IMG/VR virus record: IMGVR_UViG_3300014933_000056
Location: 1-52,101 of that record
DNA from: a virus
Taxonomy: Duplodnaviria; Caudoviricetes
Strand: one strand, 5' to 3'
DNA length: 52,101 nucleotides
The translations under genes and the position numbers were made by a program. Shown here one piece after another: positions 7,890-11,056 of the stretch (its first letter is position 1; every line of letters starts with the position of its first letter). The notes beneath the pieces are model-generated. The model had not been told where the DNA came from and ran no database searches. It saw only the letters and a program-made list of their open reading frames with translations.

Positions 7890-8007
7890 TTTTGTTCCCT
7901 TCATTCGTCAGCACGTAAATTATTAAAAATATTAATGTTGCTACCCACATCATTCCCCCAGTAACTATCAGGAAGAAACTCAATGCACTGATAATCGCGT
8001 CAATCAT
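7882..8007 (-). CDS. small membrane protein (41 aa)
   Basis: Hand-translated MIDAIISALSFFLIVTGGMMWVATLIFLIIYVLTNEGNKND; fills the operon gap. Confidence 0.55.
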   Translation of the reverse strand: MIDAIISALSFFLIVTGGMMWVATLIFLIIYVLTNEGNKND

Positions 8008-8683
8008 TTTGATGTCCTCTTTTCTTTATTCTATTTTGTGCTGCTTTTTTTAAATTGGCTTTGTGCTCTTCAGTAAATTTCATTCCTAACCGTGCTTTAC
8101 TAATAGACAAACCATGCGTCCTTGAATAAGGCTTTCGTTTAATGCCAATTTGAATTTCACTTAAATGTTTTTTTGCAGATTCTGACATTGGTTTTCGAGG
8201 TTTTTTTCTATCAATTTTTTTTCTATTTTCTTCCAAAGCGTTTAATTGTTTTTCTGTTTGACCTTTTAATTTTTTTGTCTCACTAATTTTTTTTGCAATT
8301 TGAGGATCACGTTTAATTCCTTTAAATAAAGATGGTTTACCTTTGTTATGAGCAATACGCTTTTTATTTTTATCCCAAGGTTTGTCACCTTGATCATCAT
8401 AAGAAGCTTTAACATGATGGTTAAATAACAAACCGCTGTCTTTATATTTATCAAGCCAAACTTGCTCAAGATGAATACGTTTTTGTTTATCGTTCTCTTC
8501 TTGTTCTTCAATAAATTTAATGCATCCATATTTGTTAAAATAATTTTGCAAATATTTGCAATGATGTTTGTTTTTTCGCAAAAGCCATAAATGATGTGCT
8601 TTTCGCGTCGTAAATTTCTTGGTTCTACCAATATAAAACTTATCCGAATCTTCAACGCGAATGGTGTAAATTCCGCCCGTCAT
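8000..8683 (-). CDS. GIY-YIG homing endonuclease with NUMOD3-like repeats
   Basis: GIYTI...FYIG.T...R...H, EQ.W, N; MSESAKKHLS and FTEEHKANL repeats; AT-rich; GGAGG RBS. Confidence 0.9.
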   Translation of the reverse strand: MTGGIYTIRVEDSDKFYIGRTKKFTTRKAHHLWLLRKNKHHCKYLQNYFNKYGCIKFIEEQEENDKQKRIHLEQVWLDKYKDSGLLFNHHVKASYDDQGDKPWDKNKKRIAHNKGKPSLFKGIKRDPQIAKKISETKKLKGQTEKQLNALEENRKKIDRKKPRKPMSESAKKHLSEIQIGIKRKPYSRTHGLSISKARLGMKFTEEHKANLKKAAQNRIKKRGHQND

Positions 8684-8704: not shown

Positions 8705-11056
8705 TTATATCTTTTTTCTCTTCTGCCATGAAATATTCATCTGCCGAATCTTATTGACCACGTTAGTCGTGATCTCTACGTTCGGTGCCTTGCTAAACGC
8801 CCACTTCGTGTCCTGCCCTGTCATCTGTTTAAACAGGTGCCACGCCCTACCTGACTGCGACTCCGGCTTGCTGTGATACCTCGCATAGGTACAGATCTGA
8901 TTCCATAAGTGCTCAGCGTTATCTGCAAGCTTTCTTTTGCTGACACCCTCGCCAATAAAGATCTCTTTCATATGACCCGGCAAAGCCTCGCTGACCTGCT
9001 TACTTACCCGCTCAAACCCGCAGGCCATGCACCGCTTATGAAACGGCAGGTAGCCGCAACGTGGGCATCCCTTGGCGTCGAACTCTTCCTTGGTGCGGAT
9101 CTTCTTATCCAGCTTGTCACCGGCGTCCAGCTCAGCCAATCCGTTGAAAAATATCTCGTTGAAGTCCTCAAAAAACCGAATGATGTTTCCCGAGAAATCC
9201 AACAAGTGGCAGTCCTTCTTGCCTGTCTCAGGTGATACACGCAGGCCACGCCCCCACATCTGGATAGCCGTGCTCAGTGACTTACGAAGTGGCCTTGCAT
9301 CGCAGATACAACCAACGTCAGGTACGTCAAAGCCCTTCGCTAAGGCCTCTACGGAGATCAAGACCTTCAGGTAGCTATCAGGCTTGCGGTACTCGTCCAA
9401 AAGCATCTCGCGCTCTTTAGCGGTGGTCTCTGAGGTAAAGACTGCAGCCATCACACCGGCGGCAATAAACTGACGAGCCAGCTCTTCGCAGTGCTTAATC
9501 GTTGCGCCAAAGATGATGGTCTTGCGGTTGTCGCCAAACTTCTGCCAATCGTTCACCACGTCCCCAACGATCTTCAGCTCACGCTCTTCGGCTGCTTTTT
9601 CTGTCCACTCGCCGCCCTTGGTCTCTGCGCCTGTCATATCGGGCTTAGCGCACGAAAATATGCGCATGGGTACCAACACCCCCGACTGAGTCAGATCGTG
9701 CATCGTGGTGGCGTTTACGATGTTTGTGAATACCTTCCCAAGGCCTGCAGTAAACGGGGTAGCCGACAAACCAATTACCGTAGCGTTCGTCTCTTTGGCA
9801 AACTCAGTCCATGCCTTGTAGGTCGTATGGCAGTTGTGAACTAAGATGCCCTCTGCAAAATATGATGGATGGCCTGAGACCCGTAGGTTGTAAACAAGTT
9901 CATCGCTTCCTCGTTCTTCAACCTCAACACTTTCCACCCAAGGTTGCGAAGCAAAGCATCCTTTTTCTGATCCTGCATTTGACGCTTCGACGCCCCATGG
10001 CTCGGGCCATCCAGTTCGATTGCAATCATCAGTTCCTTGTTCGCCACATCCACCTTGTAGTGATGCGGATAGCCCTGCTTCGAGGACTTCAATGTGCAAA
10101 TAACGACCTCTGTTAGCCATGGGAAGCCTAACGCTTGTGCCGCCATGGCTTGTGGTTTTGTTAGACCAGTACCATTGCCTCCACGTACCTTCGGCCCATG
10201 ACCGATTGCCTTCAATGTTTTCTGCATTTTCAGGCGCGATTCTTCGGAGTGCATCGGGTTCTTCAGCCTCTTCGCACAAGACTGCCCACAGCATTGTTGC
10301 TGTTTGAAGTTCGACTCCAGTTGAGGCATCGGCTTCCCGTTGTAGCCTTTCACCATTTTTGGCATGAAGGGTTTTGTACAAACCACACACATCTTGAAAG
10401 CGAAATAACCGCGAACCGATTTCCAAGGAGCCAGCGGGTCGCCATCCCAAGTTGGTAAATATTGGATGGTCTGGGGTGCATTCAAATTTTGTTCCATCGG
10501 ACAACCTCACTTTGCAAATTGATGATGCTGGCTTTGAAAAGACAGAGTCAATTCGACCAACGCCCATTGCATTGTATATGAGTTCGCCACTATGCAGTGT
10601 GCGTATCTCACGATATCCATGAGGAGTGGCTATCAATGTGTCGCCGGGGAAGCACTCATCAACCACCAGAACGTCCATCTGAGGCCAGAACTCGCGCTTG
10701 GCGATAGTCTGCACACTAGCGATTTGGAATAGCTCATCAGGACGCCTGCGCCAGTGCTTGGCTTGGATTACGCCGTGGGCATGCATACCGTAGCGATCAG
10801 CGACCGCAGAAGTTTGGTTGATTAGGGTTGTGCGATCACACAGGAAGACAGCACGTTTACCCTTCTGAACGGCCTCGTTGCAGATACGCAGGCCTAGGTA
10901 AGTCTTCCCAGCACCCGTAGGCGCCATGATCAATTGATTCTTATGTCCTTCCCTGAAACCCTTCCGTAAGGCTTCATGAGCCTGTAATTGGAAGGGTCTT
11001 GCTTCAGGGAATTTGGTTCCATCATCACGCTCACTTGGCGCTAGGGTAGAAGTCAT
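8705..11056 (-). CDS. SF2 (DEAD/DEAH-box) DNA helicase, intein-containing
   Basis: APTGAGKT; DE|CH split by the intein; GLSATP; KGFDVP; QMWGRGLR; C-terminal CPRC..C..C. Confidence 0.92.
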   Translation of the reverse strand: MTSTLAPSERDDGTKFPEARPFQLQAHEALRKGFREGHKNQLIMAPTGAGKTYLGLRICNEAVQKGKRAVFLCDRTTLINQTSAVADRYGMHAHGVIQAKHWRRRPDELFQIASVQTIAKREFWPQMDVLVVDECFPGDTLIATPHGYREIRTLHSGELIYNAMGVGRIDSVFSKPASSICKVRLSDGTKFECTPDHPIFTNLGWRPAGSLEIGSRLFRFQDVCGLYKTLHAKNGERLQREADASTGVELQTATMLWAVLCEEAEEPDALRRIAPENAENIEGNRSWAEGTWRQWYWSNKTTSHGGTSVRLPMANRGRYLHIEVLEAGLSASLQGGCGEQGTDDCNRTGWPEPWGVEASNAGSEKGCFASQPWVESVEVEERGSDELVYNLRVSGHPSYFAEGILVHNCHTTYKAWTEFAKETNATVIGLSATPFTAGLGKVFTNIVNATTMHDLTQSGVLVPMRIFSCAKPDMTGAETKGGEWTEKAAEERELKIVGDVVNDWQKFGDNRKTIIFGATIKHCEELARQFIAAGVMAAVFTSETTAKEREMLLDEYRKPDSYLKVLISVEALAKGFDVPDVGCICDARPLRKSLSTAIQMWGRGLRVSPETGKKDCHLLDFSGNIIRFFEDFNEIFFNGLAELDAGDKLDKKIRTKEEFDAKGCPRCGYLPFHKRCMACGFERVSKQVSEALPGHMKEIFIGEGVSKRKLADNAEHLWNQICTYARYHSKPESQSGRAWHLFKQMTGQDTKWAFSKAPNVEITTNVVNKIRQMNISWQKRKKI
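9833..10654 (-). mobile_element. intein (274 aa) in helicase motif II
   Basis: CFPGDTLI block A; ECTPDHPIF block B; VYNLRV...YFAEGILVHN blocks F/G followed by Cys+1; removal restores VVDECH. Confidence 0.93.
9841..10497 (-). CDS. Vsr/DUF559-like endonuclease overprinted on the intein (+1 frame)
   Basis: CVVC...CCGQSC Zn motif; NPMHSEESRLKM; YKVDVA...IAIELDGPSH...D..KD..L...GWKVLR; TGAGGT 6 nt before the ATG. Confidence 0.85.
   Translation of the reverse strand: MEQNLNAPQTIQYLPTWDGDPLAPWKSVRGYFAFKMCVVCTKPFMPKMVKGYNGKPMPQLESNFKQQQCCGQSCAKRLKNPMHSEESRLKMQKTLKAIGHGPKVRGGNGTGLTKPQAMAAQALGFPWLTEVVICTLKSSKQGYPHHYKVDVANKELMIAIELDGPSHGASKRQMQDQKKDALLRNLGWKVLRLKNEEAMNLFTTYGSQAIHHILQRAS

What the first reader, a model, noticed from the sequence alone, without database searches (positions are those of the whole stretch)
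9833..10654. Dual-coding intein: homing endonuclease overprinted in the +1 frame with its own RBS
Seen: a 274-aa intein splits the helicase DECH motif. Its ~150-aa middle is stop-free but has no nuclease motif. The same strand in the +1 frame holds a 218-aa ORF (9841-10497) wholly inside the intein. It has TGAGGT 6 nt before the ATG, a CxxC/CxxxC Zn motif, a NUMOD3-like helix and a full Vsr/DUF559-type core (YKVDVA..IAIELDGPSH..D..KD..GWKVLR). The same bases at ~9907-9943 read GWKVLRLKNEE in the nuclease frame and WVESVEVEE in the intein frame, where the C-terminal splicing region begins. The ORF starts just before block B and stops 8 nt before the terminal Asn. Established: intein endonucleases are normally in-frame domains released by splicing. 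Inference: here the mobility enzyme is translated separately, or by a +1 shift, which uncouples nuclease dose from helicase expression. Standard gene callers would see only an intein with a junk linker.
Basis: partly seen in the sequence, partly recalled or inferred. Interest (0 to 1): 0.95.

Follow-up and report, generated by a model that had tools for sequence, protein, structure and literature searches.

The report
Helicase intein with hidden out-of-frame nuclease gene
A self-splicing protein insert (intein) in a phage helicase gene carries its own DNA-cutting mobility gene in a second reading frame of the same DNA. This two-frames-in-one layout recurs in over a hundred related viral sequences, so it is real and widespread, although the general idea was first described in 2025-26 preprints.

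Summary
Window 8705-11056 (-) encodes a 783-aa SF2 helicase. A 274-aa class-1 intein (9833-10654) interrupts it at motif II (VVDE|C...HN|CH). A 218-aa ORF (9841-10497, -) lies in the +1 frame inside the intein and is an EDxHD/Vsr-like (DUF559) homing endonuclease.

This is not a sequencing error. In 111 of the 112 related loci I frame-checked (42 weak genome hits, L113-L154, were not), the endonuclease sits +1 to a host ORF that stays open across it. Synonymous-codon shuffles predict 0.11 of 77 host frames open by chance; 77 were open.

In the middle of the intein only the +1 frame is under purifying selection (omega 0.09-0.18, against 0.8-1.9 in the host frame). At both ends both frames are constrained.

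The start ATGs carry Shine-Dalgarno motifs far more often than control ATGs (40 of 75 against 8.7%), which favours separate initiation over frameshifting.

The intein is 98% identical between phages whose helicases are about 73% identical. The closest helicase relative lacks it (DEAH). Both alleles occur in the same metagenomes. The element therefore looks mobile.

Out-of-frame intein endonucleases have been published (Gosselin 2025; Phillips 2026; Gorbalenya 1998), and Vsr-like genes between split inteins were described by Dassa 2009. I found no report of this same-strand +1 Vsr-like form in helicases. I rate it a new variant of a known kind.

The parts
8705..11056 (-). SF2 (DExH) helicase gene, 783-aa precursor including the intein. 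The predicted spliced product is 509 aa.
   Evidence: ORF. Pfam ResIII, Helicase_C and Intein_splicing. PHROG 16 'DNA helicase', E 1.3e-74. An intein-free homologue of 509 aa is L189.
10655..11056 (-). N-extein (134 aa), ending in motif II ...VVDE.
9833..10654 (-). Class-1 intein, 274 aa: Cys1, block B TPDH, C-terminal ...LVHN, followed by Cys+1.
   Evidence: The AF2 model has pLDDT 96-98 for residues 1-90 and 97-98 for 240-274.
8705..9832 (-). C-extein (375 aa plus stop), starting with Cys+1 of DE-C-H.
9841..10497 (-). Nested +1-frame gene for an EDxHD/Vsr-like (DUF559) homing endonuclease, 218 aa plus TAG.
   Evidence: Pfam DUF559, E 1.4e-10. AF2 pLDDT 86.8. Foldseek top hit 3r3p_A, I-Bth0305I. 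PDB profile hits 3hrl at 1e-9 and 3r3p at 0.011.
10504..10509 (-). TGAGGT: a GAGGT Shine-Dalgarno-like motif 6 nt upstream of the nuclease ATG. Its TGA is the last +1-frame stop. In the intein frame the same bases are read as codons for ...V-R-L...
   Evidence: Sequence. SD survey.
10276..10389 (-). Four-Cys zinc-ribbon region of the nuclease (C37, C40, C70, C74).
   Evidence: C37 and C40 are invariant and C70 and C74 at least 90% conserved in 73 sequences. Weak profile matches to L24e and MYM-type zinc ribbons.
9913..10050 (-). Catalytic core of the nuclease: D150, E161, D163, G164, H167, D176, G187, W188, R192, N195.
   Evidence: All are invariant in 73 sequences. They align with the DUF559 structure 3hrl.
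10385..10497 (-). 5' double-coding zone: nuclease residues 1-38 overlap intein residues 53-90, which include block B.
   Evidence: both frames show omega below 1 here. AF2 gives low pLDDT (51-59) for nuclease residues 1-20.
9947..10384 (-). Middle zone. Only the +1 frame is under purifying selection here. The intein-frame reading is a stop-free, mostly disordered linker.
   Evidence: +1 omega 0.09-0.18, host omega 0.81-1.87; variable sites at host codon positions 1, 2, 3 are 127, 78, 67; pLDDT below 50 for most of residues 142-231.
9842..9946 (-). 3' double-coding zone: the nuclease C-terminus (GWKVLRLKNEE... to the stop) overlaps the intein's C-terminal splicing strands (blocks F and G).
   Evidence: (both frames omega below 1).

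Best explanation
This is a mobile, contiguous class-1 intein inserted in motif II (DE|xH) of a phage SF2 helicase. Its homing endonuclease is not an in-frame domain. It is a complete, separately initiated gene of the EDxHD/Vsr-like (DUF559) family, nested on the same strand in the +1 frame.

Ribosomes reading the helicase frame pass straight through the nuclease gene. The result is a 783-aa precursor in which about 150 residues of stop-free, largely disordered 'passenger' peptide link the N- and C-terminal Hint halves. Splicing then removes the whole 274-aa intein and leaves a 509-aa DECH helicase (inferred).

Other ribosomes initiate at the internal GAGGT-N6-ATG and make the 218-aa nuclease: a zinc ribbon plus a Vsr-like catalytic core. 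The nuclease is inferred to cut intein-free (DEAH) helicase alleles of co-infecting phages. Repair from the intein-bearing allele would copy in the intein together with the Cys+1 codon.

Because the nuclease ORF overlaps splice blocks at both ends, the two frames are locked together. The host frame is kept open purely by the choice of synonymous codons in the nuclease gene.

Shown here: the anatomy, conservation of the frame relation, selection on each frame, the fold and catalytic residues, SD enrichment, and presence/absence and horizontal-transfer signatures. Inferred: translation start, splicing, cleavage specificity and homing.
For: 1. Anatomy and domains.

2. Frame relation. In L001-L112 the nuclease is +1 to a spanning host ORF in 111 of 112 loci (with L074 re-read). 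The exception, L090, is a free-standing copy. The first four checked were Vibrio, Pseudomonas and Corynebacterium phage records whose deposited helicase CDSs read straight through. Junctions are nearly always DE|CF...HN|CH.

3. The open host frame is selected. In 77 clusters (<70% nuclease identity) the host frame was open in 77 of 77, against 0.11 expected from 1000 synonymous shuffles each. The third frame was open in 0 of 77, with a mean of 16.5 stops.

4. Selection by frame (Nei-Gojobori). In the intein middle, the +1 frame has omega 0.09-0.18 and the host frame 0.81-1.87. In the exteins (pairs with defined dS), the host frame has omega 0.05-0.17 and +1 is above 1. In both overlap zones both frames are below 1.

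5. Nuclease identity. E161, D163, H167 and D176 are invariant in 73 sequences. AF2 pLDDT is 86.8. The Foldseek top hits are I-Bth0305I (3r3p, probability 1.00, TMt 0.68), then Vsr (1vsr) and DUF559 (3hrl).

6. Intein fold. The two Hint halves have pLDDT 96-98 and the linker is below 50.

7. Own start. An SD of at least 4 nt precedes 40 of 75 first ATGs, against 8.7% of 3320 control ATG triplets (p = 5e-23). The first ATG lies within 10 codons of the upstream +1 stop in 48 of 72 representatives.

8. Mobility.
- The window and L005 are 98.2% identical in the intein middle and 99.0% in the 3' overlap, but only 72-74% in the exteins.
- Of 31 assessable close helicase relatives, 27 lack the intein. 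These include the closest, L155 (97% aa identity, DEAH).
- Independent metagenome contigs carry the intein with no gaps. In two runs of one study, X1 and X2, intein-free contigs with an Ala codon coexist with them.
Against: There is no direct evidence of translation of either product, of splicing, or of cleavage.

The true start codon is not settled. A second in-frame ATG (M36, just before the first CxxC) aligns with the starts of other subfamilies, and nuclease residues 1-20 are predicted disordered. 35 of 75 first ATGs lack an SD of 4 nt or more.

No promoter-like or RNA-structure signal stands out at the nuclease start.

Nei-Gojobori omega is biased in overlapping frames, so only the large contrast is meaningful. 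The 77 of 77 figure comes from loci pre-filtered for a complete nuclease ORF of at least 180 aa and a spanning host frame; 5 of 113 were dropped.

Only the best 80 of at least 333 IMG/VR relatives were fetched, and 42 weak genome hits (L113-L154) were not analysed.

One database protein, P0020, has the N-extein, the intein N-half and the nuclease in one frame. Other frame states therefore exist or arise by error.
Confidence: 0.85

Rival explanations
1. Relic reading: the +1 ORF is a no-longer-expressed remnant of a free-standing endonuclease that once invaded a mini-intein. In this phage the intein is simply inherited vertically.
For: Mini-inteins without any nuclease exist at the same DE|CH site (Vibrio phage 13VV501A, L191). 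No expression data are available. L111 looks like a truncated copy.
Against: The +1 frame has omega 0.09-0.18. All 77 clusters keep an intact ORF with invariant catalytic residues. The intein is near-identical across helicases that differ by about 27%. The intein is absent from 27 of 31 close relatives.
Confidence: 0.06
2. Frameshift reading: the nuclease is made by programmed +1 ribosomal frameshifting from the helicase/intein frame. The product would be an N-extein, intein-N and nuclease fusion rather than a separately initiated protein.
For: The nuclease is always +1 to the host frame. One database protein, P0020 (496 aa), has exactly this fused architecture.
Against: A +1-frame stop lies 3 codons upstream of the ATG in the window, and within 10 codons in 48 of 72 representatives, which leaves almost no room to shift. 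SD motifs are strongly enriched before the ATG. Such a fusion would not splice and would waste helicase. P0020 is 1 of 150 listed representatives, and its DNA could not be retrieved.
Confidence: 0.03
3. Artefact reading: two compensating indel errors in the assembly put an in-frame endonuclease domain out of frame.
For: None, beyond this being the default suspicion for a single metagenomic contig.
Against: The same +1 relation holds in 111 of 112 loci from isolates, MAGs and metagenomes. The inteins of 7 relatives are exactly 274 codons with no indels. Contigs from 4 independent runs cross the intein with 0 gaps.
Confidence: 0.005
4. Domesticated-nuclease reading: the +1 protein is expressed, but it serves the phage (for example by excluding or degrading competitor phage or host DNA) rather than driving intein homing.
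For: Free-standing relatives sit next to intein-less helicases (L090). A second, GIY-YIG endonuclease gene lies directly downstream in the window. From recalled knowledge of T-even phages, homing endonucleases there also mediate marker exclusion.
Against: The intein and nuclease move together as a unit between diverged helicases, and presence/absence is sporadic. This is what homing predicts. The two roles are not mutually exclusive.
Confidence: 0.06

Closest known systems
'Fractured genes': split inteins with a free-standing Vsr-like (or GIY-YIG) endonuclease gene between the halves (Dassa et al. 2009, PMC2677866; abstract and passages read)
   Same: The endonuclease family is the same (Vsr-like/EDxHD). 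The hosts are phage DNA-metabolism genes. The nuclease is a separate gene with its own start, lodged where an intein's endonuclease domain would sit. Its 3' end overlaps the coding region of the downstream intein part.
   Different: There the host gene is broken into two ORFs and must be joined by trans-splicing. Here the host frame stays open through the nuclease gene (0 stops, against about 8 expected), so the intein is contiguous. That paper's helicase host is gp41, not a DExH SF2 helicase. A fractured UvsW at the same DE|CH site does exist in Salmonella phage S16.
Non-canonical actinobacteriophage inteins with endonucleases in a separate frame or strand (Gosselin, Arsenault and Gogarten, bioRxiv 10.1101/2025.01.02.630785; abstract, sections 8 and 15 and passages read)
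   Same: These are contiguous inteins whose endonuclease is read in a frame other than the intein's. [quoted passage not shown]
   Different: They report VSR-like nucleases only on the antisense strand. Their only same-strand out-of-frame type is endonuclease VII-like (frame 3). The hosts are DNA polymerase, minor capsid, terminase and thymidylate synthase, not helicase. [quoted passage not shown] Their supplementary tables could not be seen.
Cyanobacterial dnaX intein with an out-of-frame LAGLIDADG endonuclease (Phillips, DeSimone and Gogarten, bioRxiv 10.64898/2026.09.14.751524; abstract and section 17 read), which credits Gorbalenya 1998 with the first proposal
   Same: The nuclease is on the same strand and out of frame inside a contiguous intein. 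dN/dS is low in the nuclease frame and raised in the intein frame. Mini-intein and empty alleles coexist.
   Different: The nuclease family differs (LAGLIDADG, described as a +2 ORF), the host is cellular, and so is the host gene.
I-Bth0305I, the founding EDxHD homing endonuclease, encoded in a group I intron in recA of Bacillus phage 0305phi8-36 (Taylor et al. 2011, PMC3239194; passages read; structure 3r3p)
   Same: It is the best structural match to the +1 product. The catalytic E, D, H, D residues are conserved. It has an N-terminal DNA-binding extension and a phage host.
   Different: It is carried by an intron rather than an intein. Sequence similarity is weak (profile E 0.011). The window protein has a four-Cys zinc ribbon.
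Canonical large inteins with an in-frame LAGLIDADG or HNH domain
   Same: The Hint splicing fold is the same, and the nuclease sits at the same position, between the N- and C-splicing halves.
   Different: In canonical inteins the nuclease is part of the intein polypeptide and is made one-to-one with the host protein. Here it is a separate translation product, and the in-frame insert is a disordered spacer.

Membership tests
Class-1 intein (Hint fold) | N-terminal Cys/Ser nucleophile directly after the N-extein | tested here: met
   Cys1 follows VVDE. C1 is invariant in 68 aligned inteins.
Class-1 intein (Hint fold) | Block B TxxH motif | tested here: met
   TPDH at intein residues 59-62. The His (H63 in A3's numbering) is invariant.
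Class-1 intein (Hint fold) | C-terminal His-Asn followed by a Cys/Ser/Thr +1 extein residue | tested here: met
   ...LVHN|C. H273 and N274 are invariant. HN[CS] was found in most loci.
Class-1 intein (Hint fold) | Match to an intein/Hint profile and a Hint fold | tested here: met
   Pfam Intein_splicing scores 36.2 bits against a cut-off of 35.8, so it only just passes. The AF2 beta-rich halves have pLDDT 96-98. No structural search of this model was run.
Class-1 intein (Hint fold) | Protein splicing activity | not testable with these tools
   Inferred from intact motifs and from the helicase being otherwise disrupted in motif II.
EDxHD / Vsr-like homing endonucleases (I-Bth0305I family; Pfam DUF559) | Profile match to the Vsr-like/DUF559 nuclease domain | tested here: met
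   DUF559, E 1.4e-10, 41.4 bits against a cut-off of 20.6. 3hrl at E 1e-9 and 3r3p at E 0.011 with the family profile.
EDxHD / Vsr-like homing endonucleases (I-Bth0305I family; Pfam DUF559) | Conserved catalytic E, D, H, D residues | tested here: met
   E161, D163, H167 and D176 are invariant in 73 sequences. The motif name and the roles of the residues are taken from Taylor 2011.
EDxHD / Vsr-like homing endonucleases (I-Bth0305I family; Pfam DUF559) | Vsr-like fold | tested here: met
   Foldseek ranks 1-4 are 3r3p chains A and B, 1vsr and 3hrl, with probability 0.97-1.00. All E-values are above 1e-3 (best 2.7e-3). TMt is 0.68 for 3r3p.
EDxHD / Vsr-like homing endonucleases (I-Bth0305I family; Pfam DUF559) | N-terminal NUMOD-type DNA-binding motifs | tested here: inconclusive
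   No Pfam NUMOD3 hit at E<=1. A conserved four-Cys zinc ribbon and an 'NPM' helix region are present instead.
EDxHD / Vsr-like homing endonucleases (I-Bth0305I family; Pfam DUF559) | Site-specific cleavage of the element-free allele, and homing | not testable with these tools
   Indirect support only: the intein is nearly identical in diverged helicases, and empty DEAH alleles occur in close relatives and in the same samples.
Fractured gene / naturally split intein (Dassa 2009) | Host gene split into two ORFs, each carrying one intein half | tested here: not met
   A single 783-aa ORF runs through the nuclease gene. The host frame is open in 111 of 112 loci.
Fractured gene / naturally split intein (Dassa 2009) | Free-standing endonuclease gene with its own start between the intein halves | tested here: met
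   The ORF has its own ATG and SD. Its position relative to the intein halves is given.
Non-canonical inteins with an out-of-frame endonuclease (Gosselin 2025; Phillips 2026) | Endonuclease encoded inside a contiguous intein, in a frame other than the intein's | tested here: met
Non-canonical inteins with an out-of-frame endonuclease (Gosselin 2025; Phillips 2026) | Purifying selection in the endonuclease frame and relaxed selection in the overlapping intein frame | tested here: met
   omega 0.09-0.18 against 0.81-1.87.

The most novel reading that the evidence does not exclude
This may be the largest and oldest dual-coding intein lineage yet seen, with at least 333 IMG/VR loci and 1053 clusters of the nuclease at 50% identity. 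It may also be the missing contiguous intermediate in the Dassa model of how free-standing endonucleases enter inteins and then break genes.

At one and the same target (motif II, DE|xH, of SF2 helicases) all stages coexist in nature:
- empty DEAH sites;
- a free-standing nuclease abutting an intein-less helicase (L090);
- a mini-intein (13VV501A);
- a contiguous intein with the nuclease locked in the +1 frame (this window and 110 other loci);
- a fractured, split-intein helicase (phage S16 UvsW).

In the contiguous form, an essential gene's reading frame is kept open over about 440 nt solely by synonymous-codon selection inside a selfish gene. The selfish gene's own ends have in turn overprinted the splicing blocks. 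The result is a mutual lock that may explain why the +1 relation has survived down to about 31% nuclease identity.
Probability: 0.55. Interest if true: 0.72.

Novelty: new variant of a known kind. Interest (0 to 1): 0.62.

Why it matters
**Annotation.** Gene callers and deposited records label these genes simply as 'helicase', 'P-loop NTPase' or 'coil containing protein', and no separate CDS for the nuclease is listed in the four regions I opened. Intein surveys that look only in frame would score the family as inteins with degenerate or absent endonucleases. That would bias estimates of how many inteins are still mobile.

**Evolution.** The family gives a densely sampled natural series for testing the 'splicing first, endonuclease invades later' model and the origin of split inteins.

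**Overlapping genes.** It is a clean case in which one frame, the linker, is constrained only to avoid stop codons. This allows direct measurement of that constraint.

**Applications.** The family supplies many new EDxHD endonucleases with a known, highly conserved target region. It also supplies compact helicase inteins that tolerate a disordered insert of about 150 residues.

Tried and rejected
**Sequencing error.** Rejected.

**Close DNA relatives among isolated phages.** blastn found only one record, and only its extein flanks matched. That record turned out to be an intein-free allele.

**Internal promoter or regulatory RNA structure at the nuclease start.** One weak sigma-70-like site lies at 10551-10522 (-), against 2.4 expected by chance. 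The RNA fold of 10440-10580 (-) gave z = +0.5. Neither result is usable as evidence.

**Wider search for mini or in-frame variants using a profile of intein N-domains (A4).** The tool found no stretch conserved enough. I used tblastn of the window's N-domain against phage records instead. That produced the mini-intein (L191) and the fractured UvsW (L192).

**Salmonella phage S16 gp114.1.** It is not the same nuclease family. Only the zinc-finger stretch aligned (hhalign probability 45%), and the Pfam hits were below cut-off.

**P0020, the in-frame N-side fusion.** Its status is open: real variant, indel or mis-assembly.

**Nei-Gojobori values for N-extein pairs.** Those involving L007, L010 and L011 are meaningless because the stretches are unaligned or saturated (dS = nan). 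The script also crashed at the C-extein step because L007 is too short. The position counts were rerun without L007.

**Sequencing runs.** All 23 listed runs are kept as contigs, and none holds half of the sampled words. No raw-read check of indels or of transcript ends was therefore possible.

Supplementary tables of the Gosselin preprint could not be seen and may list related cases.

**Literature.** I ran 7 full-text searches. None returned a same-strand out-of-frame Vsr-like/EDxHD nuclease in a contiguous helicase intein. Subscription-only papers, including Gorbalenya 1998, were not read.

Full report
**What is in the window**

The minus strand of 8705-11056 holds one 783-aa ORF. It has ResIII and Helicase_C domains and a match to Pfam Intein_splicing that only just passes (36.2 bits against a cut-off of 35.8). 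It falls in PHROG 16, 'DNA helicase'.

The protein reads ...VVDE|CFPGDT...GILVHN|CHTT... So a 274-aa class-1 intein (9833-10654) sits inside helicase motif II, and splicing would give DE-C-H.

A second ORF of 218 aa (9841-10497, minus strand) lies wholly inside the intein in the +1 frame. It is preceded by TGAGGT-N6-ATG. The TGA in that hexamer is the last +1-frame stop, so the ORF begins 3 codons after a stop. The ORF hits Pfam DUF559 at E 1.4e-10.

**It is conserved, not an error**

tblastn of the +1 protein against 50,697 phage records found 40 records. In the listing, all matches lie under CDSs annotated as helicase, P-loop NTPase, 'coil containing protein' or hypothetical. I opened four: Vibrio phage CP-T1, Pseudomonas phage MR14, Vibrio phage 1.088.O and Corynebacterium phage phi673. 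In all four the deposited helicase CDS reads through an intein at DE|C...HN|CH, and the Vsr-like match is +1 to that CDS, as an open frame of 215-263 codons.

A profile of these ORFs then retrieved two further sets. The other was 70 loci from GTDB genomes. I analysed L001-L112. L113-L154 are weak hits to the catalytic core only, and I left them out.

In 111 of the 112 loci the nuclease ORF is +1 to a host ORF that is open across it.
- L074 at first looked broken but holds an intact 203-aa ORF, also +1.
- L064 and L104 are cut by contig ends.
- L111 looks truncated.
- The one exception, L090, is a free-standing copy of the nuclease (DUF559, E 2.5e-11). Its 3' end overlaps the start of an intein-less helicase.

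Junctions are almost uniformly DE|CF...HN|CH. A subgroup is DE|C...HN|SS in longer ATPases that look SNF2-like (my reading of the motif; not tested).

**Both frames are maintained by selection**

After dropping 5 of 113 loci (incomplete nuclease ORFs, or no spanning frame), 108 loci fell into 77 clusters at 70% nuclease identity.

I shuffled synonymous codons within each representative's nuclease ORF, which leaves its protein and codon usage unchanged. This put a mean of 2.4-24 stops into the host frame. For the window the mean was 7.9 stops, and 0 of 1000 shuffles were open. The shuffles predict 0.11 open host frames among 77; all 77 are open. The third frame is open in none, with a mean of 16.5 stops. 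The filter required a spanning frame, so the fairer raw figure is 111 of 112.

Seven relatives have inteins of exactly 274 codons with no indels. This allowed Nei-Gojobori estimates by segment.
- Intein middle (intein nt 271-708): the +1 frame gives omega 0.09-0.18 where dS is not saturated. The host frame gives 0.81-1.87.
- Exteins and first 156 nt of the intein: the pattern reverses. The host frame gives 0.05-0.50 and the +1 frame is mostly above 1.
- The two overlap zones (intein nt 157-270 and 709-813): both frames are below 1.

The site counts agree. In the middle zone, variable sites fall 127, 78 and 67 on host codon positions 1, 2 and 3, and host position 1 is nuclease position 3. In the C-extein the counts are 59, 45 and 116. 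Nei-Gojobori is biased for overlapping frames, so I rely only on the size of the contrast.

**What the two products look like**

With a 73-sequence alignment, AlphaFold2 gives the +1 protein a mean pLDDT of 86.8. Residues 1-20 are low.

Foldseek's best PDB matches, in order, are the I-Bth0305I catalytic domain (3r3p: probability 1.00, TMt 0.68, E 2.7e-3), E. coli Vsr (1vsr) and the DUF559 structure 3hrl. The family profile hits 3hrl at E 1e-9 and 3r3p at E 0.011.

Several residues are invariant or nearly so in the alignment:
- C37 and C40 (invariant) and C70 and C74 (at least 90%), a four-Cys zinc ribbon;
- the GGNG loop, in which G107 and G109 are invariant and G106 and N108 at least 90% conserved;
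- D150, E161, D163, H167, D176, G187, W188, R192 and N195.

This matches the EDxHD motif as described by Taylor et al. 2011 (passages read).

The intein read in frame 0 folds as two confident Hint halves (pLDDT 96-98 for residues 1-90; 97-98 for 240-274). They are joined by a linker that is below 50 over most of residues 142-231. Two predicted helices, at 86-102 and 110-138, reach block means of 84-89, and I cannot explain them.

**How the nuclease is probably made**

A Shine-Dalgarno match of at least 4 nt at spacing 4-11 precedes the first ATG of the ORF in 40 of 75 representatives. It precedes 8.7% of 3320 control ATG triplets in the same host genes (binomial p = 5e-23). The first ATG lies a median of 6 codons after the upstream +1 stop, and within 10 codons in 48 of 72. 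This favours independent initiation and leaves little room for a programmed +1 shift.

The exact start in the window is not settled. In the window's subfamily the ORF starts at intein residue 52, upstream of block B. The same is true in 28 of 63 scorable representatives. In other subfamilies the ORF starts after the N-terminal splicing domain. The window also has an in-frame ATG at M36, without an SD, which aligns with those later starts.

The nuclease stop lies inside the intein in 64 of 72 representatives, typically 8-50 nt from its end. In 8 of 72 it runs into the C-extein.

**Signs of mobility**

The window and L005 are 98.2% identical over the intein middle and 99.0% over the 3' overlap. 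They are only 72.3% and 74.3% identical in the flanking 405 nt of N- and C-extein.

A search with the C-extein returned 34 close helicase relatives. I examined 32 of them; L181 and L182 do not reach the junction. Of the 32, 31 were assessable: 27 lack the intein (26 DEAH, one DECH) and 4 carry it.

The closest relative, L155 (97% aa identity; 91% and 88% nt identity in the exteins), is intein-free with GCA-CAC (Ala-His). The window and the five intein-bearing relatives printed have TGC or TGT there. MW202545 carries a 509-aa intein-free helicase, which is exactly 783 minus 274.

Logan contigs from four metagenome runs cross the intein with no gaps. Two of the runs, from one study, also hold contigs that skip exactly the intein plus the Cys codon and carry an Ala codon instead. 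Both alleles therefore coexist in the same samples. All of this is what an active homing element predicts, but it does not demonstrate homing.

**One insertion site, several states**

The same DE|xH site shows a series of states:
- empty sites;
- a free-standing nuclease abutting an intein-less helicase (L090);
- a mini-intein of roughly 150 aa with no nuclease ORF in any frame, in Vibrio phage 13VV501A, whose helicase also has a second intein in the P-loop;
- the contiguous +1-nested form studied here;
- a truly fractured UvsW helicase in Salmonella phage S16, with separate N- and C-halves and an unrelated free-standing ORF between them.

A HMMER scan of 1.84 billion representative proteins found 1053 clusters of the nuclease at E<=1e-30. 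Of the 150 best, 149 have stand-alone length (158-342 aa). One, P0020 (496 aa), joins the N-extein, the intein N-half and the nuclease in a single frame. Its locus could not be retrieved.

**Comparison with the literature**

Dassa et al. 2009 described Vsr-like endonuclease genes free-standing between split-intein halves. They proposed that free-standing endonucleases invade inteins (abstract and passages).

Gosselin et al. 2025 (preprint; abstract and sections 8 and 15) report contiguous actinophage inteins with endonucleases in another frame or strand. Their VSR-like cases are antisense. Their only same-strand out-of-frame type is endonuclease VII-like. Their hosts are not helicases. [quoted passage not shown]

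Phillips et al. 2026 (preprint; abstract and section 17) show an out-of-frame LAGLIDADG gene in the cyanobacterial dnaX intein, with the same dN/dS contrast.

Seven full-text searches returned no description of the present combination. Subscription-only papers and supplements were not visible.

**Verdict**

The finding is real and well supported. It belongs to a recently recognised kind (non-canonical, out-of-frame intein endonucleases) and is a new and unusually widespread variant of it.

It differs from the published cases in four ways. It pairs an EDxHD/Vsr-like nuclease with a same-strand +1 frame. It targets helicase motif II. It overlaps the splicing blocks deeply at both ends. And its frame relation is very old and uniform.

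Expression, splicing and cleavage are inferred. Confidence in the overall explanation is 0.85, and interest is 0.62.

Noticed in passing
window 8000-8683 (-): A free-standing GIY-YIG endonuclease gene (227 aa; Pfam GIY-YIG, E 1.4e-6) starts 22 nt downstream of the helicase stop, in sequence that looks AT-richer to the eye (not measured). The helicase locus therefore carries two different mobility nucleases.
   Followed up: partly
L191 (Vibrio phage 13VV501A) 1652-4153: This helicase carries two inteins. One is in the P-loop (GAGK|C...HN|T). The other is a mini-intein of about 150 aa at the same DE|CH site, with no nuclease ORF of 100 aa or more in the other same-strand frames. A 212-aa antisense ORF somewhere in this gene was not located or examined.
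   Followed up: partly
L192 (Salmonella phage S16) 1814-4540: The UvsW helicase is fractured at the same DE|CH site. The N-half ends with an intein N-part. A 291-aa ORF, gp114.1 (weak NUMOD3 and TnsA-like hits, below cut-off), lies between the halves. The C-half begins with an intein C-part (...ALAHN|CH). A GIY-YIG gene lies just upstream.
   Followed up: partly
L090 2471-4530: A free-standing member of the same nuclease family (201 aa, DUF559) overlaps by 31 nt the start of an intein-less helicase (motif DESH).
   Followed up: partly
protein P0020 (representative library; locus unknown): A 496-aa predicted protein has ResIII N-extein, the intein N-half and the DUF559 nuclease in one reading frame, ending at the nuclease stop. 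It could be a real N-side fusion or split form, an indel, or an assembly error.
   Followed up: partly
window 10241-10399 (-), intein residues 86-138 in frame 0: AF2 predicts two helices, with 10-residue block means of pLDDT between 55 and 89, in the part of the intein-frame 'linker' that is otherwise unconstrained (host-frame omega about 1). It is not clear whether this is an artefact of covariation imported from the +1 frame or a real helical extension.
   Followed up: no
L075, L078, L079, L084, L087, L095, L099: In these family members the junction is DE|C...HN|SS(I/L)LK(N/S), inside longer ATPases (up to 1269 aa) that look SNF2-like. The same intein and nuclease unit appears to have moved between helicase families, using Ser as the +1 residue.
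   Followed up: no
L023, L028, L032, L039, L045, L046, L092, L096: In 8 of 72 representatives the nuclease ORF runs past the intein's terminal Asn into the C-extein (by up to 94 nt), so it also overlaps conserved helicase sequence.
   Followed up: no
window 9829-10656, runs X1 and X2 (one study): Contigs with the intein (word depth 324 and 6.4) and contigs lacking exactly the intein, with Ala in place of Cys+1 (depth 3.5-9.9), occur in the same metagenome runs.
   Followed up: partly
L111 1504-2820: This is a second, apparently degenerate copy in the same MAG as L097. The nuclease ORF is only 143 aa and the host ORF stops 24 codons after the intein.
   Followed up: no
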